Shown: in pieces, positions 1 through 64,000 of the stretch
Numbering within the stretch: the stretch's first letter is position 1
Layout of the letters: every line of letters starts with the position of its first letter
Virus record (IMG/VR): IMGVR_UViG_2061766007_000491
Reading direction: 5' to 3' (one strand)
DNA from: an uncultured virus (IMG/VR IMGVR_UViG_2061766007_000491)
Lineage: Duplodnaviria > Heunggongvirae > Uroviricota > Caudoviricetes
Length of the DNA stretch: 64,000 bases
Translations under genes and position numbers: made by a program
Notes under the pieces: generated by a model
What the model was told of the DNA's origin: nothing
The model's database searches: none
Seen by the model: only the letters and a program-made list of their open reading frames with translations

Positions 1-51
1 AGCATAGGATTTCCACGGCGGATGCCGTTGTGCCGAAGGCACTTATGGTAC

Positions 52-87
52 ATACTAATAGTGAGTATTTTTACTTACTATTAGTAT
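52..87. repeat. 16-bp AT-rich inverted repeat (one mismatch) upstream of the cassette array
   Basis: ATACTAATAGTGAGTA (52-67), TTTT loop, TACTTACTATTAGTAT (72-87); TATAAT overlaps the right arm at 85-90. Confidence 0.8.
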
Positions 88-168
88 AATTATTTTATAA
101 TAGATAGAGGCACAAGGGGTTATGGATGTCCAGCCCGAAGAGGCTAGACGAGTGGGAGTAGAAGGGTA

Positions 169-2891
169 AATGGTGTAGCCAGAGGTGGATTTTATAGTAC
201 AAGTCAAGTGTTAAATGTCAGGTGTGGAGGGTTAAGATGGGAGAGGGTAGGGACTTATGCGGGGGATAGAGTAGGGTTTCGTTTGAATGGTGTAATGAGG
301 TGTGGGTCATATAGGAGTGATGATATGCCTTACAGGGCGAGGATAGGGAGTAGGATACAATTAAGGTGGACGGCGGTATCTAGTATAGTAGGGTTTCGTT
401 TGAATGGTGTATATCGGGGAGGGGGCTGCTCAGACAATAGTAAGCGTAAGGTTAAGGTGTGCAGGGAATAGGTATGGTGATACATCGAGGCATCAGGGGA
501 CTGCGATCATAGGGTTTCGCTGTGAATGGTGTAATAAGGAGTGGAGCTTACACCTTAGTGAGTACAGGGTTAGCAAGGATGGGATATAGGAATCAGTATC
601 AGGTACATAGTAGTGCTAGGGAGTATATAGGGTTTCGCTGAATGGTGTAATAGTGGGAGTAAGTAGATATGGTAATGCGGATAGGGTGAGGTGTGGTTAT
701 AGGTTTAGTGGGTATAAGAGGTATAGTAATTATAGTGACTTAGGGTTTCGTTTGATCTGTGAATGGTGTATATCGGGGAGGCCAGCAAAATTCATCTAGT
801 GCGGATAAGCAGAGGATAGGTAGGAGAGGGAATCCGAACAGGAATAATACACAGGAATATGCAGGGTTTCGTCTGTGAATGGTGTATGGGCAGGTGGGCA
901 ATATGCAGGTAATTCACATAGTGCAAGGGGTAGTTCTAGGTCAGGTGGGTACAGGTTAGGATATGTGAATGATACTTTAGGGTTTCGTACTGTGTGAATG
1001 GTAATGTAGGGTTAAAAAGAGGGACTAGCTTTACACAGTTAAGTGTTTATGGAAGGTGTGGGTATAGAAGTAGTGGGAATATATTGTATGGTAACGGTGT
1101 GAATTTAGGGTTTCGTCTGTGAATGGTGTAATACGAGGTGGGGCTTATAGTCATGTAAGTCTAAGGAATAGCGTGTTTAGGAGGAATGGGAGTTACCCAC
1201 AGGAACATAGTTATACGAGTAGTGCAGTAGGGTTTCGCTGAATGGTGTTAGTAGGAGTGGGGCTTATAATAGTGCAACAGATAGGTATAGAGTGGCTAGA
1301 AGGAATGGGGGTAATAAAAAGAATAGTGTGTTTGGAGAAATAGGGTTTCGTACTGTGAATGGTGTTATTGTAGGTGGAGGGAATGCAGCTAATAGTTACA
1401 GGGGTAGAAGTAGTATAAGGTTAGATGCTAGAAGGAATGAGGTGAAGGATTATAGAGGGTTTCGTTTATCTGAATGGTGTATTTAGAGGTGGAGGGTTCA
1501 CGGCTAGTAAGGAATTGTATTTTAGGTGTGGAGGGGTTAGGTGGAATGAGCGGTACAGGACGTTTGTGAATAACGCATTAGGGTTTCGCTGGGGTGTGAA
1601 TGGTGTAAGGGTGGGAGGCGCATATTATAGTCAACCACCGATGTTTATAAGGAGTGGAGCGAGGAGTAATTATCCAGTATTGAGTTATGTAAGTACGACA
1701 TTAGGGTTTCGTTCTGAATGGTGTGTTACGGGGTGGGTATATTAGCACAGGTCAAGTGTTAAATGTTAGGAGTGGGAAGAGGGATATTAGGGTAAAGACG
1801 TTAGATGATGGTGCTAGAGGGTTTCGTTTACTGATTCTGTGAATGGTGTAGTGAGAGGTGGGAATTACAGTAGGGATTATAAGGTGTATATGAATAGGTG
1901 TGGGTTTAGATATAAGGATGCAACATTAAGAGGGCAAGGAGGGTTTCGTCTGTGTGAATGGTGTATTAAGGGGGAATACTTATGGGCCAGCATATAGATC
2001 AAGACCTGGTTGGAGGAGGAATGATTATTGGGTAAGGGTAGATAGTGCAATAGGGTTTCGTCTGAATGGTGTAGTAAGGTCTAGTGATATTATATATAGT
2101 TCAACAAAGACGGTTAGAATGAGGTGCGCTTACAGGACGTATTTGATAAATACATGGAGTAGTACGGCGGTAAATGTAGGGTTTCGTTTGGGGTGTGAAT
2201 GGTGTTAGTAGAGGTGGAAGGGCTGGACATTTAGCGTGGTTTATAAGGAGTAGTAGGAGGTGGGATAGTTATGGTTATGTTATAGGGAATGGGAATGTAG
2301 GGTTTCGCCTGAATGGTGTACGCAGGGGTGGTGTATATAACGATTATGCACGGTATTGTAAGAGTGTGTATAGGAATAGCTATGCAAAGGCTAATGGGCA
2401 TAGAGAGATAGGGTTTCGTTTTGAATGGTGTATTTAGAGGTGGGAATTGGTATCAGAGACCTTCATATACGAGGATAGTGCTTAGGAGCGGGAGTGAAAA
2501 AAGGAGTTATGTGCTTCTTAGTATAGGGTTTCGCTGTGAATGGTGTAATGCGTAGTGGGCAGTTTAGTTGGGCATATACGAGTTACATTAGAAGTGGGTT
2601 TAGAAGGGGTGGAAGGGTAGCTAATAGTGCAAGTGGGAGTGACATAGGGTTTCGTTCTGAATGGTGCTATAAGAGGTAGTGGTTTGATATACTTAACTCA
2701 TTATAAGCCGAGGAGTGCGTTTAGAATGTACTTGAATAACAATTATGTGCAATCAGGGTGGAGTGATTTAGGGTTTCGTTCTGAATGGTGTAGTTAAGGG
2801 AGGTGCTGCGGATGCGTTATCGGATAGGCAGAGGGCAGCTAGGGTAAGGGATGTAGGATTAAGATATACGGGTGCGCATACAGGGTTTCGT
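169..2891 (+). repeat. Tandem array of 23 variable cassettes (period 111-128 bp), each encoding an FGE/CLec-fold variable-region-like peptide
   Basis: AGGGTTTCG at 273,390,511,629,742,863,979,1107,1229,1342,1456,1580,1703,1818,1940,2052,2178,2299,2410,2525,2646,2770,2882. All but the last are followed after 2-14 nt by GAATGGT. Interiors are all different but translate as NGVxRGG...RxxxR...GFR. Confidence 0.95.
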
Positions 2892-2920
2892 TTGACAGAC
2901 CTGTATGTTATGTGTAAAAT
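2892..2920 (+). promoter_or_regulatory. sigma70-type promoter directly after the last cassette
   Basis: TTGACA (2892-2897), 17 nt, TAAAAT (2915-2920); same boxes as the promoters at 9363 and 13908. Confidence 0.7.
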
Positions 2921-2930
2921 GTTATGTGCT

Positions 2931-3551
2931 ATGAGGTACGAGCATTTTGTGGTGAGTGCAGACCAAGCGAGGTTGACGGAGGACACGGAAAGGCTGAACA
3001 AGTTTTTATCGGGGCATACGATCAATAACGTGCGCAGTGTATTCAGTGAGGCGTTAAAGGGCTGGTATTATGCGGTGGAGTACAGCGACAAGGAAGGGGT
3101 TTATATCCCAGACAAGGCAACGGAGCAGAAGGGTGTACGCACGACCTATGTAAACAGTTCTGAGTCAATCAAGGAGAAGATGGCTAAGAAGAGGCGTGAC
3201 TTCTTGAAGGAAATGACGGATGAAGAGTTTGCGAAAATGTGGATATTAAGAGAGTGCCGTAAGTTCATAGCGACCGAGGAAGGTAAGCGACCCATGTATA
3301 TTTTTCTGGACAAGCATTTTTCGGAAATGATAAAGCAGAATAACTTTACACTGGAATTTATGCGGACGCTGGAAGGTATAGGCGACAGGGCTACTAAGTA
3401 TGGGCAACGGTTACTAAAGTATTACGAAGTAAAGGTACAACAGGACTTGTCTGATTACATAGTACGGACGCAGGCACTAAGGGAGTCTGAGGCGAGCGAT
3501 GAGATAGACAGGGACGGTACAGAGGAAATGGAAGAACAGGAGTTGATTTAG
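2931..3551 (+). CDS. hypothetical protein
   Basis: ORF track 2892..3551; start moved to ATG 2931 because the TTG at 2892 lies in the -35 box. Confidence 0.7.
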   Translation: MRYEHFVVSADQARLTEDTERLNKFLSGHTINNVRSVFSEALKGWYYAVEYSDKEGVYIPDKATEQKGVRTTYVNSSESIKEKMAKKRRDFLKEMTDEEFAKMWILRECRKFIATEEGKRPMYIFLDKHFSEMIKQNNFTLEFMRTLEGIGDRATKYGQRLLKYYEVKVQQDLSDYIVRTQALRESEASDEIDRDGTEEMEEQELI

Positions 3552-3554
3552 AGT

Positions 3555-4973
3555 ATGTTAAGCAGTAAAGAAGCAAAGAGAATCATGCCGAAAGCAGAGC
3601 GTAAGTCAAGGAAGTGGTGTAACAGACACAGGTTTTATGAGTTGTTAGCATCCCAGGCAGAGCAGTACATAAGGAAGTACGATGGCAGGGACGCAGAGAG
3701 CATTGAGTTGAACATCTTTCTGAGGCATAGCTATGGTGTGTTCAAGGAGCTAGAGGAAAAGTCTTATGAAAAGATGAACAAGTGGCATGAACTCTACATT
3801 GAAGAGGAACAGGAGAGGAAAGAGAAGCTGGAACAGGAACAGCGGAAGGAAGAGGGGTCTGAACAGTTAGGTACTGTATTAAAGGGTGTATTGGCTAAGA
3901 AGTATAAGAAGCTGTTACAGTGGGCAAGAGAAGGGTTATGTGGCTGTAGTGATGAAGAGGAACGGCTGGCTTGGGGAAAAGTAATAGTGAGTTTGAAGAA
4001 CACTATAGCGAATGGCTGGGTTGCTCCGTACCTGTTTATAGAAGAGGACAGCAGAGCGCAACAGTTGTATGGAGGATTATTGAGCAGGTTTAATGATGAA
4101 TGCGCTGAGGAAGTGGATGAAGAGGGAGTAGAGTTGACCGATGAAGAGAAAAGGGAGTTTGCAAATAACTATAGAACACCAGAAGAGATATTAGGGTCTG
4201 ATTGGGTAGAGATACTGCATAAGTATATGTATAAGCTGGTGGAGTATGCTAAGGAACGTATAGATCGTGAACAAGAGGCTAAGACACATAATGAAAAGTT
4301 GCAGATAGCTCTTAGCAATGTGCATGAGGCGTTAAAGATGTCGCTAAACGGTTATACCTTGCCTAATTTTGGCTACTTCACAGAGGAATATAAGGTGTAT
4401 AGTATTCTGGTATATGACTTGGCTTGTAGTTTGTTGGATGATAAGCTACGGTCTTTGGTGGATGAGAAGTTACGGTGTACCTATGAAATGGTGCTGAATC
4501 ACCTAGAGGGTATGGTGATGGACACTGAGGAAGAGAAAGAGGCGTTAAAGAGGGTGATACAGGCTGTTAAGAATGGGTTAAAAGAGGGTATAAGACCCGT
4601 ATTCCCCGAAAAAACGGAACTGAATATCTTTATGTCAGCATGGAACTACATAGACCAGCTACAGAAGGCTGCACGGACTAAACCGCTTATAGCAATGCCT
4701 TGGTATGAAGGGTTAAGCGATGAAGAGATCAGGGGTAGGAATGCAACGTGCTTAAAGAGGCATATCGCTTTTATGCTGGATATTTGCGCAGAAGAGGATA
4801 AAGAGGCATGGCAAAGCCTGATGGACAAGTGCGATAAAGATTTGAACGTGGATGATCTGACACCGAGAGAGTTTAAGGTGTATAGTTGGATATGGTTTGA
4901 GGAAAACGAAGAGCGTAAGAAGCAGTTACAGAAGGAACCACAGTATAAGGTGGAAATGATCGAGGAGGAGTAG
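3555..4973 (+). CDS. hypothetical Glu/Lys-rich helical protein
   Basis: 472 aa ORF tightly packed between neighbours. Confidence 0.8.
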   Translation: MLSSKEAKRIMPKAERKSRKWCNRHRFYELLASQAEQYIRKYDGRDAESIELNIFLRHSYGVFKELEEKSYEKMNKWHELYIEEEQERKEKLEQEQRKEEGSEQLGTVLKGVLAKKYKKLLQWAREGLCGCSDEEERLAWGKVIVSLKNTIANGWVAPYLFIEEDSRAQQLYGGLLSRFNDECAEEVDEEGVELTDEEKREFANNYRTPEEILGSDWVEILHKYMYKLVEYAKERIDREQEAKTHNEKLQIALSNVHEALKMSLNGYTLPNFGYFTEEYKVYSILVYDLACSLLDDKLRSLVDEKLRCTYEMVLNHLEGMVMDTEEEKEALKRVIQAVKNGLKEGIRPVFPEKTELNIFMSAWNYIDQLQKAARTKPLIAMPWYEGLSDEEIRGRNATCLKRHIAFMLDICAEEDKEAWQSLMDKCDKDLNVDDLTPREFKVYSWIWFEENEERKKQLQKEPQYKVEMIEEE

Positions 4974-4974
4974 G

Positions 4975-5730
4975 ATGTTCGAGAAGGTAAGCTGGATAAT
5001 CCCGACAATGTGGAAGCACACGTTGTTTTTTCGGTTGCTGGATAAAGTGAGCAAGGCAGACAATGGGGATGAAGTGATCGTGATAGATAATGTGAATAGC
5101 AATAAGCACATTAAGTTACCGAACGTGAGACAGGTGTTTATCAGTACGAACAGCTTTGTCAATCCAGCTTGGAACCTAGGCGTGAGTCTGAGCCATAACG
5201 AGGCGATATGCTTAGTAAACGATGACGTGATGTTTACTTATGAGGTGTATAGGAAACAGTTATTAGATGCCTTGAATGAGGACGAGCATAGCTTGTTACT
5301 GAGTTATAAGAGGCGGTTTTACAATATACAGGATAAGACAGATGAAGAGTTACTGAGGGCTTATCCTGTGTTGGTTGACCCTGTGGATTCTGCACCTGGA
5401 TGGAAGCTGGTCACGCCAGAGGTGGATGCCGAGCCTGATGAACCGTTCTGGGGTACAGGTTTTGTGCAGGGCATGGCATATAAGCATTATCCAGCTATAC
5501 CAGCGCAGTTGAGGATATTTTTTGGGGATAATTGGATTAGGGAAGTGTATAAGGCGAATGGATGGAGACGATTGTTAAGTCACTGCAAGATAGTGGGTAG
5601 GCTGAACGGCACGGTGGGTACGTTTAATTGGGATAGCATTGGTAGGGATAAAGGTCGGGTCTGGGAGGGTGAAGTGGATTATTATTACGGTGTGTGTGCG
5701 CCAAAATTTGAAACGAAGCGTCTATATTAA
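4975..5730 (+). CDS. glycosyltransferase family 2 (GT-A fold)
   Basis: IIPT start, VIVIDN, VNPAWNLG, LVNDDV (DxD-type) and FFGDNW motifs. Confidence 0.8.
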   Translation: MFEKVSWIIPTMWKHTLFFRLLDKVSKADNGDEVIVIDNVNSNKHIKLPNVRQVFISTNSFVNPAWNLGVSLSHNEAICLVNDDVMFTYEVYRKQLLDALNEDEHSLLLSYKRRFYNIQDKTDEELLRAYPVLVDPVDSAPGWKLVTPEVDAEPDEPFWGTGFVQGMAYKHYPAIPAQLRIFFGDNWIREVYKANGWRRLLSHCKIVGRLNGTVGTFNWDSIGRDKGRVWEGEVDYYYGVCAPKFETKRLY

Positions 5731-5745
5731 AGGCGAGGATAAAAT

Positions 5746-6390
5746 ATGTTCGACATTATTGACAGGAACGGAAAGAAAGAGTTGTTCAGGTGGTTTCAGG
5801 CGGTGAATAAGCCCATGAAGGTTGTGGTTATTCCCGATGAAGTGGAAGCTCTGTGCAACTATACTTTTAGCAATCACAGTGTGGGTCAGGTGGATTTGAT
5901 CTGGATGCCAGACACGATCACTGAGATTCCTATGTATTGCTTCTACAAATGCACGGCTAGGGCTATACGCATGAGCAGAAACGTGAAAACGATTGGTGAA
6001 TATGCGTTTGCGAATATGCCGAACTTATGGATGCTGAAAGTGCCAGAGGGTTGCAATCTGGGTATTAAGCGGTACGATGGTACTTGGATGAACCAGAACA
6101 CCGTATTTTACAACAGCCCGAAACACGCTCCAAAATGGAGTCCCTGGATTGACTTTGGTACAGAATACGACACGGCAACGGTGCTGTGGGAAGGTGATGA
6201 AGGGAATGTACTGTTAAAGAGTCTGGACTTAAAGAATTGGGAAGTAGTGGATGAAGGCAAGGGTGTGTATCAATACCCGCTGGATGGTGTGAAACGGTGC
6301 TTTAAGGTGGGTGCTAAGAATGTGAACCCGACCCAGAGAACCAAAGACCAGACCTATGTGTCACGGACTAAGACGATCGTGATTAAGTAA
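5746..6390 (+). CDS. BspA-type leucine-rich repeat protein
   Basis: IPDEVEAL..YTF, MPDTITEIPMYCF, NVKTIGEYAFANMPNL repeats. Confidence 0.7.
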   Translation: MFDIIDRNGKKELFRWFQAVNKPMKVVVIPDEVEALCNYTFSNHSVGQVDLIWMPDTITEIPMYCFYKCTARAIRMSRNVKTIGEYAFANMPNLWMLKVPEGCNLGIKRYDGTWMNQNTVFYNSPKHAPKWSPWIDFGTEYDTATVLWEGDEGNVLLKSLDLKNWEVVDEGKGVYQYPLDGVKRCFKVGAKNVNPTQRTKDQTYVSRTKTIVIK

Positions 6391-7189: not shown

Positions 7190-7772
7190 CGTTATACAGC
7201 GATTAGAGAGTCTGCTTGAGTATATAGACTATAGTGCTATTGTTCGGTCGAGCAAGAAAAAGGACTATAGTTTGCTTAGACATAAGAAGGATAAGAGCTA
7301 TTCAAGACTGACTCTTGATGTATTTACGGATGCGGAGAAGTATGAAATGGTTAGCAGGTGCTATACAGATGTGTATAGAAATGGGTTTGCGGTGGTTTAT
7401 CAGGATGGGGAGCCATTCTTGAAGTTTGCGAATGACCGATATTTACTGTGCTATAGCTTAACGAAACAGGCAGGTGGGCGCATGGTGAAGGTGAGTGTGA
7501 AGCCTGGTTTTAAGTTTGGGGATGTAATTAGTTTGGACAGAGCGGTGGAAATACTGAGGGATGGATTCTTAGCGTTTTTAGAGGATGCGCTGATCGTGAA
7601 GGTGGGCTACAATGGGCCTGTGGAGGGTGACAGGATGACGTGGCAGTACATTCAGGACAAGGGTAGTGACAAGTTGAAGGGGTATTATGTGGAGTTTGCA
7701 AAGATGTCTTGGTCGAAGCTGTATGAGAAAGCACAGAGGATAGGCGAAGAGCCAAAGCCGATTGAGTATTGA
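7179..7772 (+). CDS. hypothetical protein, candidate internal head protein
   Basis: 197 aa ORF; N-terminal IQRLESLLE leader. Confidence 0.65.
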   Translation: MASDVIQRLESLLEYIDYSAIVRSSKKKDYSLLRHKKDKSYSRLTLDVFTDAEKYEMVSRCYTDVYRNGFAVVYQDGEPFLKFANDRYLLCYSLTKQAGGRMVKVSVKPGFKFGDVISLDRAVEILRDGFLAFLEDALIVKVGYNGPVEGDRMTWQYIQDKGSDKLKGYYVEFAKMSWSKLYEKAQRIGEEPKPIEY

Positions 7773-8130
7773 TTTTATGGAGAGTGATGGTTTTTTACGT
7801 TTAGAGAATGTGGGAACAGTGAGGGGGTATGAGGGGAACAGAGAAGTAAAGGGTGTGATGGTGATAAACGCCAAGCGGATAGGGGACGGAGCGTTTAGGA
7901 ACTGCGGTAAGGTGAAAGAGGTGATATTACAGGATGTGGCAGAGATAGGCGCAGAGTCGTTTTTAGGTTGTGGGAAGCTGCGGAAGGTGGTAGTAGTAGG
8001 GTCGTGTTATAAAATGGGCGAGAAAGCCTTTTCTGGCTGTGGAAAGCTGGATGTAGTGGTTCTGCCCAAGACGATGAAGAGCTATCCAGTAAATGCGATA
8101 CCAAAGAATGCTAAGGTTTTAGTAGAATGA
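7762..8130 (+). CDS. BspA-type leucine-rich repeat protein
   Basis: IGDGAFRNCGKV, IGAESFLGCGKL, MGEKAFSGCGKL repeats. Confidence 0.85.
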   Translation: MSIDFMESDGFLRLENVGTVRGYEGNREVKGVMVINAKRIGDGAFRNCGKVKEVILQDVAEIGAESFLGCGKLRKVVVVGSCYKMGEKAFSGCGKLDVVVLPKTMKSYPVNAIPKNAKVLVE

Positions 8131-27725: not shown

Positions 27726-29153
27726 ATGAGTAAGATGATTGAGATTGATGAGAAACGTCTGCAAGAGAAAACTGACAATGATGCAGCGTATTTTCTCCGT
27801 AAGTATGAACCGCAGATGGAAGCTCTGAGCTATTCTCCTCTGGCTAAGGTTCGCAACATTAACAGCTATGACGTGTGTGCGCTGGGCAGACAGCTTCAAC
27901 AGTGGGAAGATTATAAGAACCATATCATTAGTGAAGCTGGCCCTTATGGTACTAACGCTGACCTCGGTAAACTCCCGCAGATCGCTCTGGATATTGTGAC
28001 TGCTGCTTATGGTAGCTCTATTATCCCGCTGATTTGCTCTGTGCAGCCGATTGACGAACAGAAAGGTATCGTTTACTACAAAGAGACAGTTGCCCAGAAT
28101 ACAAGGGGTAATGTTACCGAAGGTGACGTGCTTAATACTCCGTTCCGTGCGCCTGATGCTTATGCTCGTGGCTATGCGAACGAGAATCTGGGTGTGACCC
28201 TGACGACTACTGCGAGCGGAACCACTGATTACACTGGCTCTATTGCTGGAATCAGTGCGACCAACAGTATTAGACCTAACTCTTTCAAGGTTACTGCGAC
28301 TCTGCCGTATCTGAAAGTGGAAGCCTCTGACGATGGCAAAGGTAACTTCTTTGGTGTTGGCATCCAGGGTACAATTAACTACACCACTGGTGCTTGGACA
28401 ATCCGTTTCTTGGATGACCCGCAGGATGCCGTTGCTCTGACAGCGACCTACGGACAGGACTTTGAAGCGGGTGCTGCTTATCCGAGAATCATTGGTCAGA
28501 ACCAGTCCACCGACATTGAAGCGCAGATTTTCGTGCTTGGTTCCGAAGTTGGTCTCTTCAAGAGCTTTGCGATGAAGAAACGCTTTGGCACGATCGCTGA
28601 GGATGAAATGATTACAGACCTCACGAATGCGATCACTGCTGAAATTGGCAACACGCTGATTTACAACATTACGCAGAACGTGACTGGCCCGATTGTTCAG
28701 TGGAGCAAGAGCCACACCAACTATAGCTGGGCTGAACACAAACTAGAACTGAAAGACTCTCTGCTGAGGTCTGAAAGCAACATTCTCCAGAACGCTGGAC
28801 GTGGCAATATCTCTGTGATGATTGCTGGCCCTGATGCCTCCAGCACCTTGGCGATGCTGCCTGGATTCCAGAGAACCGAAGTAAATGCCTCTGGCCCTGC
28901 TCTGTATGGTACACTGGACGGCATTTCCGTGATTAGGTCTCCGTACACTGACACTAACAAGATTATCACCATTTACAAAGGCACAAGTATGTTTGATGCT
29001 GCTGTGGTGTATAGTCCGTATATGCCTCTGTTCGTGAGCAATACTCTGCCTGTACCGAACAACGTGCTGCAACGTCAGGGTATCGCTTGTGTGTGGTCTG
29101 GCATTAAAGTGGTTGCCCCTGCGTTTATTAACGCTGTTGAAATTGTGGACTAA
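27726..29153 (+). CDS. major capsid protein (T4 gp23-like)
   Basis: ICSVQP, ITAEI, YKG.S.FDAAVVYSPY.P motifs; position after the protease; followed by a terminator. Confidence 0.9.
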   Translation: MSKMIEIDEKRLQEKTDNDAAYFLRKYEPQMEALSYSPLAKVRNINSYDVCALGRQLQQWEDYKNHIISEAGPYGTNADLGKLPQIALDIVTAAYGSSIIPLICSVQPIDEQKGIVYYKETVAQNTRGNVTEGDVLNTPFRAPDAYARGYANENLGVTLTTTASGTTDYTGSIAGISATNSIRPNSFKVTATLPYLKVEASDDGKGNFFGVGIQGTINYTTGAWTIRFLDDPQDAVALTATYGQDFEAGAAYPRIIGQNQSTDIEAQIFVLGSEVGLFKSFAMKKRFGTIAEDEMITDLTNAITAEIGNTLIYNITQNVTGPIVQWSKSHTNYSWAEHKLELKDSLLRSESNILQNAGRGNISVMIAGPDASSTLAMLPGFQRTEVNASGPALYGTLDGISVIRSPYTDTNKIITIYKGTSMFDAAVVYSPYMPLFVSNTLPVPNNVLQRQGIACVWSGIKVVAPAFINAVEIVD

Positions 29154-31259: not shown

Positions 31260-32222
31260 ATGGGTGGGAACTATAAAAAGTTTGGCATAGACGGTACTGA
31301 GCGTTTGTTAAGAGTAGGTGCAAAGGTAGCATCTACTCTGATTAGCGTATTAGACGACCCTTTGGGGTATGATGCTGATATATTTTTCCCAGAAGGAACC
31401 ACCGTGTACGATGGGAGTGATAACAGTGTGAGATACCCTGTATTGCCTACTATAAGCCGTAGGGTGATTATAGGCAACATAATGACAGAGCGAATGCACG
31501 GTGACGTGACTCTGGACGTGTATAACGAGCAACAGCCGACCTTATGGATTGAAAGAGAGTATAGAATACCTCGCTATAGTAAAGTGGTGGTGAAGGTTAA
31601 GAATGAGACCATACTACAGTTTAAGGTGCAGTATGAGTCGGGTATGTACGCAGTGGATAATGAAATGTTCCATAAATATCCGCTAGTGCCTATGAGTGCA
31701 GTAGCGACAGGTGCGCCTGAGATAGACGAGAACCCGATGGATGTGACCTTTGACGTGAACAGTACGGGCGAGCTAGTGGTTAAAGCGAGGGGTGCTGAAC
31801 CGCTGGAATATCAATGGTACAAGGATGACGAGAAAATCGAGGGGGCTACAAGTAGTAGCCTACTGATTGACCCTGTAACGATGGACACGGCTGGCGATTA
31901 TCGCTGTGTGGTGTCGAATAGTGTGGGTACGAATACGACTTATCCCGCTCATGTGAGTGTGGCGAATCTCCCGATAATTGTGACACAGCCAGTAGGAGGG
32001 CGTTACCCAGAGGGTAGTAAGGTTACTCTGAGTGTAGAGGTACAGGGCGACCCACCGCTGAGGTATCAATGGTATCATAATGAGGAAAAGCTGTACGGAA
32101 AAAGCAACAGCACTTTGGTTATACCGAATGCGCACCAATGGGATAACGGTGATTATAAGGTACGCATAACGAATTTAACAGGCATGGTCGAGAGTGACAC
32201 AGTGCATTTATACATAGAATAA
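31260..32222 (+). CDS. virion protein with two C-terminal Ig-like domains
   Basis: PLEYQWYKD...AGDYRCVVSN and PLRYQWYHN...NGDYKVRITN. Confidence 0.85.
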   Translation: MGGNYKKFGIDGTERLLRVGAKVASTLISVLDDPLGYDADIFFPEGTTVYDGSDNSVRYPVLPTISRRVIIGNIMTERMHGDVTLDVYNEQQPTLWIEREYRIPRYSKVVVKVKNETILQFKVQYESGMYAVDNEMFHKYPLVPMSAVATGAPEIDENPMDVTFDVNSTGELVVKARGAEPLEYQWYKDDEKIEGATSSSLLIDPVTMDTAGDYRCVVSNSVGTNTTYPAHVSVANLPIIVTQPVGGRYPEGSKVTLSVEVQGDPPLRYQWYHNEEKLYGKSNSTLVIPNAHQWDNGDYKVRITNLTGMVESDTVHLYIE

Positions 32223-57695: not shown

Positions 57696-60600
57696 ATGGG
57701 TAGAACAGTTTATACAGATGTTCTGGTACGAGGGTATCAGAATGTGGGATATGAAGAGTTACAGGATAACGCCCGTCTGGATGTGGCGGGCGGTGATTCT
57801 GGTATAGCACCGTTTAAGATTGGTGTAGGTGGGTTGACAACGGTTCCGAGACCAGGGGCGATTGAGAATGTGGGTGACGATATACTCTGGACGGATAGCT
57901 ATGGGGTGAGACATTCACTCTTGAAAGCGGATTCCCTTGTAGAAAACTCGTTAAGCCTATTGATGTATGGAAAAGCCTCTCTGATGCGTAAGGAGGGGTT
58001 TTTAGGTGCAAGTGCTGGTTGGTATAGGATAGCGTCAACAAAAGCCTCTATAGGGGCAAATGAAGCGATTTTCAGGGTATATGAGAAGAGCTATGACTGT
58101 ATCTTTACCATAAAGGCGTGTTTAAGTAATAACAAGACACCGACATTGACAGTGGATGCCTTGAGTGGCTTGAATGAAGCGGGTATCACTAAAGTCAGGT
58201 TGGTTTATACGACAGGAACGGTGGATGGGTACTATGCGTATTTGGAGGTTTATAAAGCTGGAACATCCTCGTTATATGCAGTGGTGGAGAGTGTAGAACC
58301 ACACGGATGGGACATAGTACCTCCTGTTATTCCTGGTGGAGTGCCTAGTGGGTTCACTACTAAGGAAGTGGAGTTAGTGGAAGGAGCGGATTTTAATGGT
58401 ACGGCAGCGAAGGTGGTTAGTACGGCTGTAAACAGTGGGACGTACTACATAACAGGTGTTCAAGAACCGAGTGGGGTACATAGTTTTGACTATGACGTGT
58501 ATTTTAATGCCAGTGATGGGAGTTTACATAGTAATGCGATCAATAGCGGAAGCGGTACTTTTACTGGTTCTCTGGGTGTAGCTAGTACAGTTACATTGAG
58601 TGTATTGGGTGCTGGTGTGGTTCATAGCAGTGCCAGTGGTGTATTAAGTTCGTCTAAGGTGGCTTTAGGTTCTGAGGTATCAGGTACGTTACCAGTAGCG
58701 AATGGTGGAACAGGAGCTACGACACTGACAGCGAACAGGTTATTAGTGGGGAATGGTACTAGCGCAATAGGAGTGGTTGGAACAGGAACAGCTAACTATG
58801 TTCTTATAGGTAATGGGAATGCAGTGCCTACATGGGTTGAATATGCACCAAAAGCGACTTATGCAACTAGCGCAGGTTCAGCGACTACAGCGACTAATGT
58901 GAGTGGTGGAACGGTATCCTGTACGACATTGACGGCAAGCGGTTCTGTTACATTAAGTACGTTAGGTGCTGGCGTGGTTCATAGCAGTTCTAGTGGGGTA
59001 TTAAGCTCTGGAAAGGTGGCGTTAGATAGTGAGGTGAGCGGTATTTTACCTGTTACGAATGGTGGAACAGGAAGGAGCAGTATAACGGCGGGTGCTTTGG
59101 TGTATGGCAATGGAACGGGTGTGGCGAGTATTTTGGGCATAGGCACGAATAACTATGTGCTGGTGAGTAATGGGAGCGCACCGACTTGGGTTGAAAAAGC
59201 ACCGAACGCTACGAATGCAGAGAAGGTGGGTATCACTTCCAGTACGGCAAAGTTACACGTTCTTGGGGTAGCTACGAATGTAAGCGGAAATAGTACGATT
59301 TATAAAGACCAGAGTGTTACTATTGAAGGAGGAACGATCACAGCAACTACGTTTAGTGGTTCTTTGAGTGGTGGGACTATTTCGGGTACAAACTTGACGG
59401 CTACAGGCACGGTAACGCTAGGGACAAGTTCGGGGGTGGCGCATTTAACCTCTGGCGTGTTAAGTACAGGAAACGTGGCTTTAGGTTCTGAGGTGTCAGG
59501 TGTGTTACCAGTGGCGAATGGAGGCACAGGGATAAGTTCGTATAGTAAAGGGAATATCCTGTACGCAACAGCGAACACGACATTAGCAGCGTTACCTATA
59601 GGCACAGCGGATTATGTGTTGAAAGTGTCCAGTGATGGAATACCTGCATGGGCTGAGTTTGCGCCGAAAGCGACCTATGCGACTAGTGCAGGGTCAGCAA
59701 CCACAGCTACTAATGCGGATAATTTGAGTGTAAGCGCAAGCACCTCAAAGCTGTATGTAGTGGGAACAACGGCTACTACTAATGGTTATGTGACTATTGC
59801 GAGGGATGCCAGTGTGTATGTTCAGGGTGGAACAGTGGGTGCAACTACATTTAGTGGTTCTTTGAGTGGTGGGACTATTTCGGGTACGACTTTAACAGCT
59901 TCTAGTACAGTTACTTTCAGTGGGCTTGGTACTGTGGCTGGGGTTGTTCATAATAATGCAAGCGGTGTTTTAAGTAGTAGCTTGGTAAGTTTAACTGCTG
60001 ATGTTACAGGTACATTGCCAGTAGCAAATGGTGGAACAGGTATCAATTCTTATACCTCTGGGGATATGCTCTATGCAACAGGAGCTACTACACTGGCAAA
60101 GCTGGCAAAGGGTTCTAGTGGTCAAGTCTTAAAGTGCGATGGTTCTAAACCAGTATGGGCTACTATTTCGGATATTATAACTTCTGCTAATCCAACAGCT
60201 TCTATTGGATTGACAACAGTGAATGGCAGTGCAAGCACTTATATGAGGAGTGACGCTGCGCCAGCTATAGATGTGAGTATTACACCAAGTTGGACAGGTA
60301 AGCATACTTTTAGTGCTGGGTTAGTTGTTCAGAATACAAGTGGTGATGCTGCGAAGGGATTGAATATCAGGAGAACTACGGGTGATGGTGAGGCAGTACA
60401 GCATTATTTGGATGATAGTAATTATCATATTAAATATACGAACGATGAAACTACGAACGCTATAAAGTTCACACTGATAAATACAGATACAGAAGGGACT
60501 AATACAGGGACTAATGCGAATACAAGCACAGTTACTTTTGCAGGTAGCGCAAGTGGTTCTAATGTAACAGCAACTAAGTTTACAGGGAGTTTGGTGGGTG

Positions 60601-63600
60601 GAACGGTATCAGGCACGACTTTAACAGCTTCTAGTACAGTTACTTTCAGTGGTTTAGGAACAGTAGCGGGTGTAGTTCATAATAATGCCAGTGGAGTGTT
60701 GAGCAGTGGGCTTGTCAGTCTGACGGCTGATGTGAGTGGGAAACTGCCTGTAGCGAATGGGGGAACGGGTGCTTCTTCACTGACGAAGTACGCTGTATTG
60801 TTAGGAAACGGTACAGGAGTGGTGAGTACGACAGCGGTGGGTACGAATAACTATGTGCTTATTGGTAAAGGCAGTAGTGCGTTTCCTGAGTGGGCAGAGA
60901 AGGCTCCGAAAGCTACAGATGCGGATAACGCAAGCAATGTGGGTGTAGCATCTACTACGGCCAAGCTGTATGTGACGGGTGTATTGACTACTGCGAATGG
61001 GAACAGTGCGGTTTACAAAGACCAGAGTGTTACGGTGGAAGGTGGGATGGTTACAGCAACTACGTTTAGTGGGTCGTTAAGTGGAGGTACTATTTCAGGC
61101 ACTACGTTGACCGTGAGTAGTACGGCTACGTTTAGTGGGCTAGGAACAGGGGTTGCCAAACTGACGAACGGGGTTCTGAGTGCTGGAAACGTGGATTTAG
61201 CCACTAGCGAGGTGACAGGCACACTGGTTGTAACAAAGGGCGGTACAGGCGTTGCAGTAGTGGCAAAGGGTGATCTGTTATATGGAAGTGCGAGCAATAC
61301 ATGGAGTAGGTTAGCGATCGGTGGAACGAGTTACGCTGGCAGGGTGCTTTATAACACGGGTACATTGCCTGAGTGGAAAACATTGAGTGATGCAGGTATA
61401 GCGACTAAAGACCATAACCATGATGGAACCTATTTGAAGCTGGCTGGTGGTGAGTCTGTAGCGGGCATAGTGACGTTTACAAGCGGTTTAACAGTGTCGG
61501 GGGGTACTACTACCCTCGGAACGCTAACAAACGCTTTATACGGCGATTCTGGCGTTATAAAGGCATCTACAACGACAGCTACCGAGTTAGGTTATGTGCA
61601 TGGAGTGACCAGTGCGATTCAGACACAGCTTGATAATAAGGTTACACGCCTGAGAATGCTGAATAACACATCTGGGACAACATGGCAGGGTATTATTCCT
61701 TTGTGGGTATTGAGTTTGAAAAATGGTTATCCTGTTTATACTGACACGGAGTTTGCCAGTGGAAGCAACTCGGTGACAGGTTATAGAACAGGGTCAACTG
61801 TTGAGAGGGTACTGGCTGCGAATGAGGCTGGTTTAGGGAATACAGATTCAGGTACAGGTGTAGGCTCTACTTCGTATGTGTTGAAGGTAACGGTTACAGC
61901 GGAAGCAGGTTTTTATCAGGCAATCAATTCAAAGCCGAATAAAGAGTTTATACAGGTATTCAGGGCGTTATTGCCTACTGGATATAAGTTTGTACCAGCG
62001 TCTAACGCTACGGGGGATGGAAGAGTAGATACGTTTTTGACGGATGTGAACGGTACAGGTAAGTGGGAATGGTACGCAAGAACCAGTTATTGTGGGGTGG
62101 GAGGCACGTTTAGTACGTCTGGACACGTTTATGTGACTAGGAGCAGTTCGTCTGGGACTTTGCCAAGTGAATCTAATCCAGTAGTGTTTTATATTGCGGA
62201 GTGTAATATATATGACGTAACGAGAGGTAGTTATGGTGCTTTGAGAGCGAGATATGCGGATAGCTCGACCAGTGTGACAGCTACTTCCGACACAACTAAT
62301 ACGTTGTATTTGGCTGGTATTAAGTCTGGTGATACCAGCACGTTAAGGTACGATACGAGCATAACGGCTGTGGGTGGCACACTGACGGCGAATGTGGGTA
62401 TATTCACCAGTGTCAAAGTGGGTGGTGGTGTGTTATTGAAGTATGCGGATAGTATGCTCAATATCAGGAACAATGCAGATAGTGATTGGGCGAGCGTGAA
62501 GGTGGGGAATTTGACTGTGGAAGGTACGATCACTTATATCAATACTCAAGACCTGGATGTGGCTGATAACATTATCACGCTGAACAGTGACGTGACAGGT
62601 ACACCGTCTGAGAATGGTGGTATTGAGATCAAGAGAGGTACAAGCACGAATGCGAGTCTGATATGGGACGAAAGCAATGATGTATGGAAGTGTGGTTTGG
62701 TTGGCAGTGAAAGCATTATTGTAACGGCTGCGAATTACACGGATTATGTAAAGAATGGTAGCTTGTATCTGCAAGCAAATGGTTCAGGTGTAGCAACATT
62801 TACGGCTAACCAGAGTGGGAACACTACGCTGAATATAGGGACAGGTTCAAGCAATGGTACGATTTCAGTAGGCGGTTCCGATGTAGCGGTGAAAGGGTTG
62901 GGCAGTAATGCTTATACCAGTATTGCTTACTTGCCTTTAACGGGTGGGACATTATCAGGTATAACGACCTTCCAGAAGGGTATTACGATAGATGTGACAC
63001 AGGGTACATGGGTGAGTGGCATGACCCAGACAGGATGTATCTCGTTTGAGAAAACAGACAGCAGTAATTATTTTCCATATATAAGAGGTTTGTCTAATAC
63101 GAATAATGTATGGAATTGGGGTGGGTATCAGAATCAGATAGGTGTGTATGGGTACTTTGCTGGGAGGACAGATAATAGTTATGACTGGCGAACCTATTGG
63201 GATTTAACAACGGGCAATCTGTATCACTCGAAAGGTTTGCAGGTTTCAGGTGTAGCTACATTCAGTAGTAATGTTGGAGTGACCAGTGCATTGACGGTGG
63301 GGACTACGTTGAGTGTGACAGGTGCAACTACATTGACAGGGAACCTCGCAGCGAACGGTATATCTACGATAGCGGACTTGTATGCGACTAAGCTGACGTT
63401 ACCGAGTGCGACACTGATAGCGACACCTGTTCAGGGTAGAATTGAGAATGATGGTGTGTATCTGTATTACACAGATGATGCACAGGTAAGGCATAAGTTG
63501 GGGTATTCAGAGGCACAGGAAAGCGATTCTACAGCGTTATGGGAGGAATTAGAGGGGTTGAATCACCGTGCAATGGGTGAACGTATTGAAGGGACGTTAC

Positions 63601-64000
63601 CTGCTACAGTGGGATGGTATAGAATAGCGACTTTACAGAATAGATCGAGTGCAAACGGTGTATTCAGAGTGAGCGATCAGACAGGTGGGAATGAGGTGTT
63701 GTTTACAGCTAGTGTGGGTGCTGGGTCTTATGGAAGTCTGACACAATTAGGATGTAGTGGTGTTACGAATATAAGCAAGGCTAGAATTGCTTATAGTGGT
63801 GCGTATGCGTTTTTGGAAGTTTATAATAATACTGCAACGGCTAAGGTGATTAGTGTGGAAGCAGTAGCACAGGTGGGTTGGAAGCTGACCAGCGGAATCA
63901 AAGGCGGTGCGCCAACCAGTTATAACGTGGTGGAGTTGACTTTCCATAGTAATGCTGTAGTGGCTAATTATTTCTATGGGGATGGTAGTAATTTAACGAA
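57696..64000 (+). CDS. very long tail fibre protein, 3'-truncated by the window end (absent from the ORF track)
   Basis: ATG 57696 (MGRTVYTDVL...); the same frame reads ...ANYFYGDGSNLT at the window end; six G.L.V..GGTG modules. Spot-checked rather than read codon by codon. Confidence 0.85.
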   Translation, partial: MGRTVYTDVLVRGYQNVGYEELQDNARLDVAGGDSGIAPFKIGVGGLTTVPRPGAIENVGDDILWTDSYGVRHSLLKADSLVENSLSLLMYGKASLMRKEGFLGASAGWYRIASTKASIGANEAIFRVYEKSYDCIFTIKACLSNNKTPTLTVDALSGLNEAGITKVRLVYTTGTVDGYYAYLEVYKAGTSSLYAVVESVEPHGWDIVPPVIPGGVPSGFTTKEVELVEGADFNGTAAKVVSTAVNSGTYYITGVQEPSGVHSFDYDVYFNASDGSLHSNAINSGSGTFTGSLGVASTVTLSVLGAGVVHSSASGVLSSSKVALGSEVSGTLPVANGGTGATTLTANRLLVGNGTSAIGVVGTGTANYVLIGNGNAVPTWVEYAPKATYATSAGSATTATNVSGGTVSCTTLTASGSVTLSTLGAGVVHSSSSGVLSSGKVALDSEVSGILPVTNGGTGRSSITAGALVYGNGTGVASILGIGTNNYVLVSNGSAPTWVEKAPNATNAEKVGITSSTAKLHVLGVATNVSGNSTIYKDQSVTIEGGTITATTFSGSLSGGTISGTNLTATGTVTLGTSSGVAHLTSGVLSTGNVALGSEVSGVLPVANGGTGISSYSKGNILYATANTTLAALPIGTADYVLKVSSDGIPAWAEFAPKATYATSAGSATTATNADNLSVSASTSKLYVVGTTATTNGYVTIARDASVYVQGGTVGATTFSGSLSGGTISGTTLTASSTVTFSGLGTVAGVVHNNASGVLSSSLVSLTADVTGTLPVANGGTGINSYTSGDMLYATGATTLAKLAKGSSGQVLKCDGSKPVWATISDIITSANPTASIGLTTVNGSASTYMRSDAAPAIDVSITPSWTGKHTFSAGLVVQNTSGDAAKGLNIRRTTGDGEAVQHYLDDSNYHIKYTNDETTNAIKFTLINTDTEGTNTGTNANTSTVTFAGSASGSNVTATKFTGSLVGGTVSGTTLTASSTVTFSGLGTVAGVVHNNASGVLSSGLVSLTADVSGKLPVANGGTGASSLTKYAVLLGNGTGVVSTTAVGTNNYVLIGKGSSAFPEWAEKAPKATDADNASNVGVASTTAKLYVTGVLTTANGNSAVYKDQSVTVEGGMVTATTFSGSLSGGTISGTTLTVSSTATFSGLGTGVAKLTNGVLSAGNVDLATSEVTGTLVVTKGGTGVAVVAKGDLLYGSASNTWSRLAIGGTSYAGRVLYNTGTLPEWKTLSDAGIATKDHNHDGTYLKLAGGESVAGIVTFTSGLTVSGGTTTLGTLTNALYGDSGVIKASTTTATELGYVHGVTSAIQTQLDNKVTRLRMLNNTSGTTWQGIIPLWVLSLKNGYPVYTDTEFASGSNSVTGYRTGSTVERVLAANEAGLGNTDSGTGVGSTSYVLKVTVTAEAGFYQAINSKPNKEFIQVFRALLPTGYKFVPASNATGDGRVDTFLTDVNGTGKWEWYARTSYCGVGGTFSTSGHVYVTRSSSSGTLPSESNPVVFYIAECNIYDVTRGSYGALRARYADSSTSVTATSDTTNTLYLAGIKSGDTSTLRYDTSITAVGGTLTANVGIFTSVKVGGGVLLKYADSMLNIRNNADSDWASVKVGNLTVEGTITYINTQDLDVADNIITLNSDVTGTPSENGGIEIKRGTSTNASLIWDESNDVWKCGLVGSESIIVTAANYTDYVKNGSLYLQANGSGVATFTANQSGNTTLNIGTGSSNGTISVGGSDVAVKGLGSNAYTSIAYLPLTGGTLSGITTFQKGITIDVTQGTWVSGMTQTGCISFEKTDSSNYFPYIRGLSNTNNVWNWGGYQNQIGVYGYFAGRTDNSYDWRTYWDLTTGNLYHSKGLQVSGVATFSSNVGVTSALTVGTTLSVTGATTLTGNLAANGISTIADLYATKLTLPSATLIATPVQGRIENDGVYLYYTDDAQVRHKLGYSEAQESDSTALWEELEGLNHRAMGERIEGTLPATVGWYRIATLQNRSSANGVFRVSDQTGGNEVLFTASVGAGSYGSLTQLGCSGVTNISKARIAYSGAYAFLEVYNNTATAKVISVEAVAQVGWKLTSGIKGGAPTSYNVVELTFHSNAVVANYFYGDGSNLT

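What the first reader, a model, noticed from the sequence alone, without database searches (positions are those of the whole stretch)
169..2891. Cassette interiors stay open in one frame while the junctions scramble frame
Seen: by hand translation, 22 of 23 units are stop-free from NGV to GFR and differ in length only by whole codons (35-41 aa), despite a T/A/G-rich composition that produces many stops in other frames. The 22 linkers between GGGTTTCG and GAATGGT are 2-14 nt: 6 keep frame, 6 give an in-frame TGA (GFR*, GFRL*, GFRTV*, GFRLLIL*), and 10 shift frame. Inference: selection acts on each unit as a protein part, not on the array as a polyprotein. The linkers resemble variably truncated natural C-termini (GFRL...), as if units were captured or joined one at a time.
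Basis: partly seen in the sequence, partly recalled or inferred. Interest (0 to 1): 0.8.

Follow-up and report, generated by a model that had tools for sequence, protein, structure and literature searches.

The report
Phage bank of silent binding-tip cassettes
This stretch of a rumen phage genome is a store of 23 unexpressed alternative tips for a ligand-binding protein, and related phages show whole tips being copied from such stores into the working gene, much as some pathogens change their surface proteins.

Summary

Each unit encodes the last 35-41 residues (NGV...GFR) of an FGE-sulfatase/C-type-lectin-fold protein, the scaffold that diversity-generating retroelements (DGRs) mutate. The gene lies just upstream of the window; window 1-168 is its conserved downstream region.

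Seventeen related metagenome contigs carry the gene together with arrays of up to about 60 cassettes. Genes with identical bodies carry wholly different tips, and all 8 distinct expressed tips have a silent counterpart (five checked by DNA, 100% identical). Two contigs are identical over 3189 nt and differ only in the expressed tip. Silent cassettes are under purifying selection (dN/dS about 0.33).

I found no adenine-specific mutation pattern and no reverse transcriptase. The arrays lie between a terminator and a promoter.

Best reading: this is a silent-cassette bank used for copy-paste replacement of the tip, like gene conversion. The enzyme is unknown. All switching evidence comes from assemblies, not single molecules. 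My literature searches found no earlier description.

The parts
1..51 (+). Distal part of the conserved region that follows the (unseen) expression gene. It holds two small GC hairpins, CGGC-GGAT-GCCG (16-27) and GTGCC-GAA-GGCAC (30-42). By homology, the gene's stop codon lies about 35 nt upstream of window position 1.
   Evidence: window 2-176 is 93.7% identical to L112(rc) 155-329 and 83% to L114 5524-5715. In those contigs this region directly follows the gene's ...GFRLALSPA* end. Alignment of 9 such regions.
52..97 (+). Long AT-rich hairpin (52-87, 16 pairs) followed by a T-rich tail. This looks like the intrinsic terminator of the upstream gene.
   Evidence: the only terminator-like site in 1-3600. 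folds the homologous L114 region into the same hairpin (z -3.8). It is conserved in 7 of 9 aligned leaders.
98..168 (+). Conserved leader segment (…GATGTCCAGCCCGAAGAGGCTAGACGAGTGGGAGTAGAAGGGTA) that abuts the first cassette. Function unknown.
   Evidence: nearly invariant in the window, L112a, L112b, L114, L090 and L095. It is absent from the shorter leader of the paralogous gene in L100/L107.
169..2891 (+). Array of 23 head-to-tail silent cassettes. Each encodes NGV…GFR (35-41 aa), the C-terminal variable region of an FGE-sulfatase/C-type-lectin-fold protein. The cassettes are separated by 2-14 nt linkers made of gene-flank remnants.
   Evidence: A profile built only from 24 expressed variable regions of public proteins finds 20 of 23 window cassettes at i-E<1e-3 and nothing else in the window. 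12 of 23 window cassettes have a >=88% counterpart in other contigs, at other array positions.
403..520 (+). Unit 3, the one broken cassette (118 nt, frameshift and two stops).
   Evidence: Across all contigs only 3 of 234 full-length cassettes are broken.
2892..2920 (+). Sigma-70-like promoter (TTGACA-17-TAAAAT, 11 of 12) that starts right after the last cassette's GGGTTTCGT. The array therefore sits between a terminator and a promoter.
   Evidence: The same layout occurs at the end of array A in L114 (GGGTTTCG|TTGACA…TATAGT), and array A begins right after a tRNA and a terminator hairpin.
2892..3551 (+). First gene after the array, a small protein with an HRDC domain (in-frame ATG at 2931). 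A link to the array is not shown.
   Evidence: Pfam HRDC E 2.6e-5. Weak PDB match to the RecQ HRDC domain, E 0.009. The same gene follows the last array in L097 (97.5% identical), L105 and L081.

Best explanation
The array is a bank of silent alternative C-terminal variable regions ('tips'). They have no promoter and are not translated in place. They belong to an FGE-sulfatase/C-type-lectin-fold protein encoded immediately upstream of the window.

Whole cassettes are copied into the gene between two short conserved borders, ...TG AATGGTG(T) (N-G-V) and (T)AGGGTTTCG(T) (G-F-R). The donor cassette stays in the array. One gene body can therefore display any of dozens of ligand-binding tips.

Shown: the cassettes are homologous to expressed tips. 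Expressed tips have identical silent copies. The exchange borders coincide with the cassette borders. Switching is much faster than point mutation. Silent cassettes are kept open by selection.

Inferred: the copying is a recombinational, non-reciprocal event (gene conversion or template switching at short homology) and not DGR reverse transcription. The conserved hairpin region after the gene marks the recipient site. The ragged gene-derived linkers mean that gene copies also enter the array. The protein is a surface ligand-binding (host-recognition) protein, by analogy with DGR variable proteins.
For: (1) What the cassettes are. L114 4263-5495 (410 aa) matches Pfam FGE-sulfatase at E 2.9e-28 over residues 92-406. 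It also matches the DGR variable protein TvpA (2y3c) at E 2e-7 over residues 249-406. It ends NGV...GFRLALSPA*. Window 2-176 is homologous to the region right after this gene.

(2) Whole-tip replacement. The L095 and L112 genes differ by 19 of 1101 nt in the body. Their tips are unalignable and of different length. Identity breaks at ...GTGAATGGTGT and resumes at ATAGGGTTTCGT. Among 24 full-length public proteins there are 22 distinct tips. P0001, P0046, P0047 and P0049 have 0 of 365 body differences and four different tips; P0045/48, P0053/58 and P0062/63 behave the same way.

(3) Donors. All 8 distinct expression-site tips in the contigs (10 instances) have a silent counterpart in the same >=88% cluster. 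Five checked by DNA are 100% identical over 78-117 nt, one of them within the same contig (L107 4314 and 5851). 9 of 24 public proteins have a silent counterpart at >=92% aa, plus P0050 and P0059 through.

(4) Rate. L107 and L100 are 100% identical over 3189 nt (tail, leader and 24 cassettes) yet have different expressed tips.

(5) Duplicates. The only within-contig duplicates among 313 cassettes (3 cases) all involve an expression site. There are no silent-silent duplicates.

(6) Independent runs. In Logan contigs of 4 runs, contigs break at the tip borders. Run X3 joins the same gene body to another tip, and also holds the L114 tip in a silent context. In X2 the same tail is preceded by L112's tip. 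X1 holds two forms of the leader-proximal end of the array.

(7) Selection. dN/dS is about 0.33 and differences are enriched at third codon positions.

(8) Silence. The arrays lie between a terminator and a promoter.

(9) Not DGR. 0 of 19 related cassette pairs have mismatches confined to adenines, donors are 100% identical including adenines, and there is no RVT_1 hit in 64 window ORFs or in the flanking ORFs of L114/L109.
Against: The window itself does not contain the expression gene; its presence is inferred from the homologous downstream region.

All switching evidence comes from short-read metagenome assemblies and Logan contigs. An identical expressed/silent pair is a roughly 110-nt repeat that can cause mis-joins. 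L080, P0042, P0060 and P0064 run from the gene body through the tip straight into array context, and are either such chimeras or real deletion recombinants. No single-molecule read was seen.

The conserved borders are only about 8-12 nt (up to about 20 with the semi-conserved RGG codons). This is very short for ordinary homologous recombination. No recombinase, nuclease or reverse transcriptase was identified. Only 64 kb of an estimated 170 kb genome was available (CheckV figure for a relative).

The direction of transfer (array to gene, gene to array, or both) is not resolved.

Single cassettes alone give no Pfam hit (0 of 3). The AlphaFold model was poor over the tip (pLDDT <50 at residues 324-400), so its surface location is not shown.

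The gene lies next to early genes, not in the tail module, and its role in host recognition is untested.
Confidence: 0.7

Rival explanations
1. A retroelement-driven system derived from a DGR. The array would be a set of template repeats that are transcribed, reverse-transcribed by an RT encoded elsewhere in the genome, and homed into the gene without adenine mutagenesis.
For: The recipient is the classical DGR scaffold (FGE-sulfatase/C-type-lectin fold with a C-terminal variable region). Small GC hairpins lie downstream of the variable region, where DGR targets carry a recognition hairpin (that DGR feature is recalled, not tested; hairpins). Replacement is unidirectional and the donor is unchanged. 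Only about a third of the genome was searched.
Against: There is no RVT_1 hit in 64 window ORFs, in PHROGs, or in the ORFs flanking the arrays in L114/L109. Donor and expressed copies are 100% identical including all adenines. 0 of 19 related pairs show adenine-restricted mismatches. The arrays sit behind a terminator-like hairpin and lack a recognisable promoter. Cassettes differ in length by whole codons, which one template cannot produce.
Confidence: 0.1
2. No dedicated switching system. The arrays would be products of repeated microhomology-mediated tandem duplication of the gene's 3' end. Tips and cassettes would be shuffled only by ordinary recombination between co-infecting T4-like phages, with selection keeping the useful outcomes.
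For: The linkers look like microhomology joins of the gene tail to the gene's pre-NGV sequence. Arrays in phages with 97.5%-identical flanks share only a colinear subset of cassettes. No enzyme or recombination site was identified. T4-like phages recombine very actively (general knowledge, recalled).
Against: The tips differ while 3189 nt of adjacent sequence have no substitution and protein bodies are identical. All 8 distinct expressed tips have a silent counterpart, five of them 100% identical by DNA. The exchange borders are precise. Within-contig duplicates occur only with the expression site. 231 of 234 cassettes are kept open. All of this points to frequent, directed use.
Confidence: 0.15
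3. The units are translated in place, as a polyprotein or as independent peptides.
For: The units are open in one frame. 6 of 22 junctions keep frame, so a few ORFs of 80-87 aa exist.
Against: 16 of 22 junctions break the frame or place TGA in frame. Units start with AAT, with no start codon or ribosome-binding site. The array lies behind a terminator-like hairpin. The same sequences occur as the C-termini of full-length genes.
Confidence: 0.02
4. An assembly artefact. Repeats would have caused the assemblers to invent the gene/tip combinations and the arrays.
For: Some contigs and proteins (L080, P0042, P0060, P0064) look like mis-joins through a repeated tip.
Against: The junction repeats (about 20-25 nt) are shorter than usual assembly k-mers, and cassette interiors are unique. 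The same architecture is seen in the window, in 17 contigs from several assemblies, in 24 proteins from JGI and ENA sources, and in Logan contigs of 4 runs from 4 studies. Even the suspected mis-joins require the same tip to be present both next to the gene body and inside an array.
Confidence: 0.03

Closest known systems
Antigenic variation by gene conversion from silent cassettes (Neisseria pilE/pilS, Borrelia vlsE/vls; also chicken immunoglobulin pseudo-V gene conversion and yeast MAT/HML/HMR switching). Features recalled from general knowledge.
   Same: One or two expressed genes sit next to an array of promoterless partial copies that cover only the variable segment. Transfer is non-reciprocal and the donor is retained. 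Short conserved borders flank the variable segment. The coding strand is G-rich with strong GC skew: 0.54-0.64 in the array against about 0.3 in the rest, and 35 against 15 G3+ runs per kb. Silent copies are kept open.
   Different: The host is a lytic-type myovirus, not a cellular pathogen. Whole cassettes are replaced; mosaic segments are rare (3 cluster pairs). The borders are only about 8-12 nt. Cassettes are separated by ragged gene-derived linkers and are reshuffled singly between arrays. The scaffold is the DGR-type C-type-lectin fold. No G4 element comparable to that of pilE was found (one canonical motif in the window array). Recombination genes were not identified.
Diversity-generating retroelements (Bordetella phage BPP-1 Mtd; Treponema TvpA)
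   Same: The protein scaffold is the same, and the same C-terminal segment is varied. The presumed purpose, changing ligand or host specificity of a phage protein, is the same. Hairpins lie downstream of the variable region.
   Different: There is no RT, Avd or template repeat with adenine-specific differences. Diversity is drawn from a stored library of dozens of unrelated tips of different lengths, not generated de novo from one template.
Invertase/shufflon switching of phage tail-fibre or pilus tips (Mu Gin, P1 Cin, R64 Rci). Recalled.
   Same: Alternative C-terminal segments for one gene body are stored next to the gene.
   Different: All cassettes here are in direct orientation. There are no inverted crossover sites. 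No serine or tyrosine recombinase was found in the window. The donor is copied, not moved. There are dozens of cassettes, not 2-7.
Recombination between conserved motifs in T-even adhesins (gp37 His boxes, gp38 glycine-rich motifs). Recalled.
   Same: Short conserved motifs that bracket hypervariable adhesin segments serve as exchange points in T4-like phages.
   Different: In those phages exchange is between genes of different phages. Here a genome carries its own silent library of up to about 60 or more segments.

Membership tests
Diversity-generating retroelement (DGR) | A reverse transcriptase gene (DGR clade, Pfam RVT_1) near the template and target | tested here: not met
   No RVT_1 hit at E<=1e-3 in 64 + strand ORFs of the 64-kb window, none in PHROGs, and none in the ORFs flanking the arrays in L114/L109. 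The rest of the roughly 170-kb genome was not available, so absence from the whole genome is not shown.
Diversity-generating retroelement (DGR) | A template-repeat/variable-region pair that differs only at adenines of the template | tested here: not met
   0 of 19 related cassette pairs with >=4 mismatches have mismatches confined to A in one member. Expressed tips and their donors are 100% identical. The 156 differences between orthologous cassettes are mostly ordinary transitions.
Diversity-generating retroelement (DGR) | A target protein with a C-type-lectin/FGE fold and a C-terminal variable region | tested here: met
   Pfam FGE-sulfatase E 2.9e-28 over residues 92-406 of 410. PDB TvpA 2y3c E 2e-7.
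Diversity-generating retroelement (DGR) | A GC-rich homing sequence and hairpin just downstream of the variable region | tested here: inconclusive
   Conserved small GC hairpins lie about 35-90 nt after GFR. Their role was not tested, and they may simply belong to the terminator region.
Silent-cassette gene conversion (pilE/pilS, vlsE type) | An expression locus plus multiple promoterless partial copies of the variable segment only | tested here: met
   The gene and arrays occur together in L114, L112, L107, L095 and L080. Arrays lie between a terminator and a promoter. Cassettes cover only NGV..GFR.
Silent-cassette gene conversion (pilE/pilS, vlsE type) | Non-reciprocal transfer in which the donor copy is retained | tested here: met
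   L107 holds the same 78+ nt in the array (4314) and in the gene (5851). L090 holds the same tip in the expression site and as the first cassette. All 8 distinct expressed tips have silent counterparts. This is assembly-level evidence only.
Silent-cassette gene conversion (pilE/pilS, vlsE type) | Segmental (mosaic) conversion tracts | tested here: inconclusive
   Only 3 cluster pairs share a >=35-nt, >=95% segment while being <88% identical overall. Replacement of the whole cassette predominates.
Silent-cassette gene conversion (pilE/pilS, vlsE type) | Dependence on the recombination machinery (RecA/UvsX-type, helicases) | not testable with these tools
   No recombination gene was identified in the window. 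An HRDC-domain protein follows the array, but no link is shown.
Invertase/shufflon tip switching | A site-specific recombinase gene and inverted crossover sites flanking invertible segments | tested here: not met
   All 313 cassettes are in the same orientation as the gene (nhmmer on the Watson strand of oriented contigs). No recombinase family appears in Pfam.
CRISPR array | Identical repeats of about 28-37 nt separating non-coding spacers, with cas genes nearby | tested here: not met
   The conserved junctions are about 20-25 nt with variable-length cores. The 'spacers' are whole-codon, stop-free and homologous to a protein C-terminus. For contrast, the chance hit L082 is a true CRISPR array.

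The most novel reading that the evidence does not exclude
A programmed diversity system in a virus that needs no reverse transcriptase. The phage would carry a heritable library of ready-made binding tips (about 25 to over 60 per array, and at least two or three arrays per genome). It would copy them at high frequency into one or two expression genes, at a recipient site marked by the conserved hairpin region. It would also write tips from the gene back into the arrays, which would explain the ragged gene-derived linkers and the single-cassette reshuffling. The arrays would then be both a repertoire and an archive. This would be a phage counterpart of pilin/VlsE variation or chicken immunoglobulin gene conversion, built on the DGR scaffold and run by an unknown enzyme.
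Probability: 0.35. Interest if true: 0.95.

Novelty: new variant of a known kind. Interest (0 to 1): 0.88.

Why it matters
Phages are known to change host-recognition proteins in three ways: by DGR hypermutation, by invertible segments, and by exchanging modules with other phages. A genome-borne library of dozens of silent tips that is copied into an expression site would be a fourth way.

It would be the first silent-cassette (antigenic-variation-type) system I could find described for a virus of bacteria. Six full-text searches found no such description. One candidate paper was read in passages and concerns ordinary DGRs.

It would show that the DGR protein scaffold can be diversified without a retroelement. 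It gives a natural catalogue of more than 200 functional binding tips on one scaffold. It makes the rate and mechanism of switching directly testable in rumen samples, where the phage occurs in runs from 16 studies. The very short borders imply either an unusual recombination mechanism or an unknown enzyme.

Tried and rejected
- No whole genome is held for the window.
- No near match among cultured phages. The capsid protein is at most 41% identical to Rhizobium and other T4-like phages.
- IMG/VR: the junction pattern gave 79 single matches and no array. An exact leader piece gave nothing. The gene gave no relatives. Five related phage fragments (78% capsid identity) hold no FGE-sulfatase gene.
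- GTDB genomes gave 7 single matches and no array. The one I read (L123, the same record as L096) is an unrelated coding region.
- Of the 35 metagenome loci, 17 hold arrays and L082 is an ordinary CRISPR array. Of the other 17 single matches I inspected only L096/L123.
- Rfam found only a tRNA in L114.
- Three single cassettes gave no Pfam hit at E<=1.
- The AlphaFold2 model of the L114 protein was poor (mean pLDDT 59, below 50 over residues 324-400), so no fold search was run.
- The 472-aa protein after the HRDC gene has no usable relative.
- G-quadruplex idea: only one canonical motif in the window array, so I did not pursue it.
- A small ORF in the leader is not conserved in frame between leaders (reading).
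- L090 compared with L114/L112 array order: blocks of unrelated cassettes lie between shared anchors. No simple polarity of gain or loss could be derived.
- Earlier findings of this scan: nothing on this genome, sequence or words.
Full report
**1. The observation**

The region 169-2891 consists of 23 head-to-tail units. Each starts with AATGGTG(T) and ends with GGGTTTCGN. In the NGV…GFR frame, 22 of 23 are whole-codon and stop-free, 35-41 aa long. Unit 3 (403-520) is frameshifted.

The 22 linkers are 2-14 nt.

The openness is not a composition effect. Frames 2 and 3 have 84 and 119 stops and leave 1 and 0 units open. In 2000 dinucleotide shuffles of the unit interiors, on average 1.13 units were open (sd 1.02, maximum 7). 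Tandem Repeats Finder does not see the array because the interiors are unrelated.

**2. Context**

The window is part of an uncultured myovirus. It has a T4-type capsid protein, sheath, baseplate and terminase genes, and all genes are on the + strand. GC skew is about +0.3 throughout and 0.54-0.64 in the array. No genome is held for it, and there is no close cultured relative.

A two-junction DNA pattern found the same kind of array in 17 of 35 metagenome loci. One locus is an unrelated CRISPR array. Of the other 17, all single matches, I read one, and it was a chance hit. No such array turned up in IMG/VR or in GTDB genomes. Runs that hold the related locus are labelled bovine or sheep gut metagenomes and come from 16 studies.

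**3. What the units are**

L114 carries a complete 410-aa gene (4263-5495) that ends …WGVNGVYRG…GVGFRLALSPA*. It matches Pfam FGE-sulfatase at E 2.9e-28 over residues 92-406. It also matches the solved DGR variable protein TvpA and formylglycine-generating enzymes.

The cassettes therefore correspond to the last ~40 residues of this fold, the segment that DGRs diversify.

Paralogous copies of the gene (57-86% identity) occur in L095, L112, L107, L100 and L080. In L114 and L080 the gene is preceded by a 492-aa Laminin_G_3 protein.

Each gene is followed by a conserved 'leader' of about 220 nt (shorter for one paralogue) and then by an array. Window 2-176 is 93.7% identical to such a leader. The window's own gene must therefore end about 35 nt before position 1.

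A profile built only from the tips of 24 public full-length proteins detects 20 of 23 window cassettes at i-E<1e-3 and nothing else in the window. Single cassettes alone are too short for Pfam (0 of 3).

**4. The arrays are silent stores**

The leader contains small GC hairpins and a 16-bp AT-rich hairpin followed by a T-rich tail, which looks like a terminator. The last cassette abuts a TTGACA-17-TAAAAT promoter.

In L114 the upstream array begins right after a tRNA and a terminator hairpin, and ends at a TTGACA…TATAGT promoter.

Units have no start codon, and 16 of 22 junctions break the frame.

**5. Exchange with the gene**

- The L095 and L112 genes differ at 19 of 1101 body positions. Their tips are unrelated and of different length. 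Identity ends at …GTGAATGGTGT and resumes at ATAGGGTTTCGT.
- In the 5.8-billion-protein collection the gene forms three clusters, with 24 full-length members carrying 22 distinct tips.
- Four members have identical 365-aa bodies and four different tips. Three further pairs have identical bodies and different tips.
- One tip occurs in both paralogues (P0041 and P0052).
- All 8 distinct expression-site tips in the contigs have a silent counterpart in the same >=88% cluster.
- The five I checked at DNA level are 100% identical to a silent cassette over 78-117 nt. One of these lies within the same contig (L107). One is the first cassette of its own array (L090).
- 9 of 24 public proteins have a silent counterpart at >=92% aa identity in my incomplete catalogue. 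P0050 and P0059 add two more through.
- L107 and L100 are identical over 3189 nt (tail, leader and 24 cassettes) but carry different expressed tips.
- Among 313 cassettes, the only within-contig duplicates (3) involve an expression site.

**6. Independent look at public runs**

These are Logan contigs, so they show presence only.

- In X1 the contigs break at both tip borders.
- In X3 a contig joins the same gene body to another tip. The L114 tip is also found there followed by an array cassette.
- In X2 the same tail is preceded by L112's tip.
- Many joints in the array remove or replace whole cassettes. One example is a clean 121-nt deletion in X5.
- X1 contains both leader→cassette 158 and leader→cassette 50, the latter being the L090 form.

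**7. Dynamics of the arrays**

The 313 cassettes form 207 clusters. The same cassette occurs with different neighbours, in different arrays and with different linkers on both sides. Twelve window cassettes have counterparts elsewhere at >=88% identity.

L097 shares 97.5%-identical downstream sequence with the window, but only a colinear subset of cassettes.

The linkers are remnants of the gene's own flanks. Of 52 distinct short linkers, 19 are fully explained as tail prefix plus pre-NGV suffix. Shuffles give 1.4 +/- 1.1. Both paralogues' flanks are represented. At least at their origin, cassettes were therefore copied out of gene copies with ragged ends.

**8. Selection**

231 of 234 full-length cassettes are intact. 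Twenty-six orthologous pairs give dN/dS of about 0.33. Their 156 differences fall 39/44/73 on codon positions 1/2/3 (p=0.0015).

**9. Not a DGR as far as I could test**

- There is no reverse transcriptase in the window or in the array flanks.
- Donors are identical to expressed copies, adenines included.
- 0 of 19 related pairs have adenine-restricted mismatches.
- Lengths vary by whole codons.

About two thirds of the genome is unseen (one search gives 28% completeness for a 48-kb relative). A remote RT cannot be excluded.

**10. Mechanism**

Shown: whole-tip, donor-retaining replacement at fixed short borders, at a rate far above point mutation, from silent cassettes that selection keeps open.

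Inferred: this is a recombinational copy event (gene conversion or template switching at 8-20 nt of homology). It is possibly started at the conserved post-gene hairpins. Occasional copying goes in the other direction and builds the arrays.

No enzyme is identified. An HRDC-domain protein follows the last array, but I have no evidence linking it to the array.

**11. Limits**

- The window lacks the gene itself.
- All switching evidence is at assembly level, and identical expressed/silent pairs are repeats that can mislead assemblers. L080, P0042, P0060 and P0064 may be such chimeras.
- The protein's place on the virion and its ligand are unknown.
- The structure model failed over the tip.

**12. 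Literature**

I ran six full-text searches: seen as listings and abstract starts. I also read passages of one candidate paper, PMC12386605, which describes ordinary DGR cassettes. None of these describes a silent-cassette array for a phage protein. The comparisons with pilE/pilS, vlsE, chicken pseudo-V genes, yeast MAT, shufflons, T-even adhesin motifs and DGR hairpins are recalled knowledge, not results of calls.

Noticed in passing
L090 546 and 1048; L100(rc) 1329 and 2299; L107 584 and 1554; L112(rc) 570; L114 5944, 6553, 7157; L097(rc) 31 (array-forward coordinates): About one junction in ten is a longer linker (~35 nt) that contains a perfect palindrome, TTGTTCCA-TG-TGGAACAA. The window array has none. 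It might be a protein-binding or recombination site; this is unexplained.
   Followed up: partly
window 2892-3551: A small HRDC-domain protein is the first gene after the last array, in the window and in L097, L105 and L081. HRDC domains occur in RecQ helicases. No functional link to the array was shown.
   Followed up: partly
L114 1456-1529: A tRNA gene (Rfam 63.8 bits) followed by a terminator hairpin lies immediately upstream of the first cassette of the upstream array.
   Followed up: no
P0041 and P0052: The same tip (1 aa difference) sits in the two paralogous genes, whose bodies are about 60% identical. It also exists as a silent cassette (L109, L089). The bank therefore appears to serve both genes.
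   Followed up: partly
window 5746-6390 and 7762-8130: Two small proteins with BspA-type leucine-rich repeats (LRR_5) lie among the early genes.
   Followed up: no
window 31260-32222: A protein with two immunoglobulin-like domains (Ig_3/I-set, E 1e-22 to 1e-24) lies just after the capsid genes. It may be a Hoc-like decoration protein.
   Followed up: no
window 57696-63998: An ORF of more than 2101 aa runs off the window end. It has no Pfam or PHROG match and lies after the baseplate genes.
   Followed up: no
whole window: All predicted genes are on one strand, and GC skew is strongly positive throughout (about +0.3). Only 28001-29000, inside the capsid gene, is near 0.
   Followed up: no
L082 2060-3048: The metagenome pattern scan also hit an ordinary CRISPR array (36-nt repeat, 30-nt spacers) by chance. 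It is unrelated to the finding.
   Followed up: yes
L112(rc) 1-105 and 5866-5976: The same tip is followed by two different versions of the tail and leader within one contig. Either two expression sites of one phage carry the same tip, or the contig start is a repeat-induced join.
   Followed up: no
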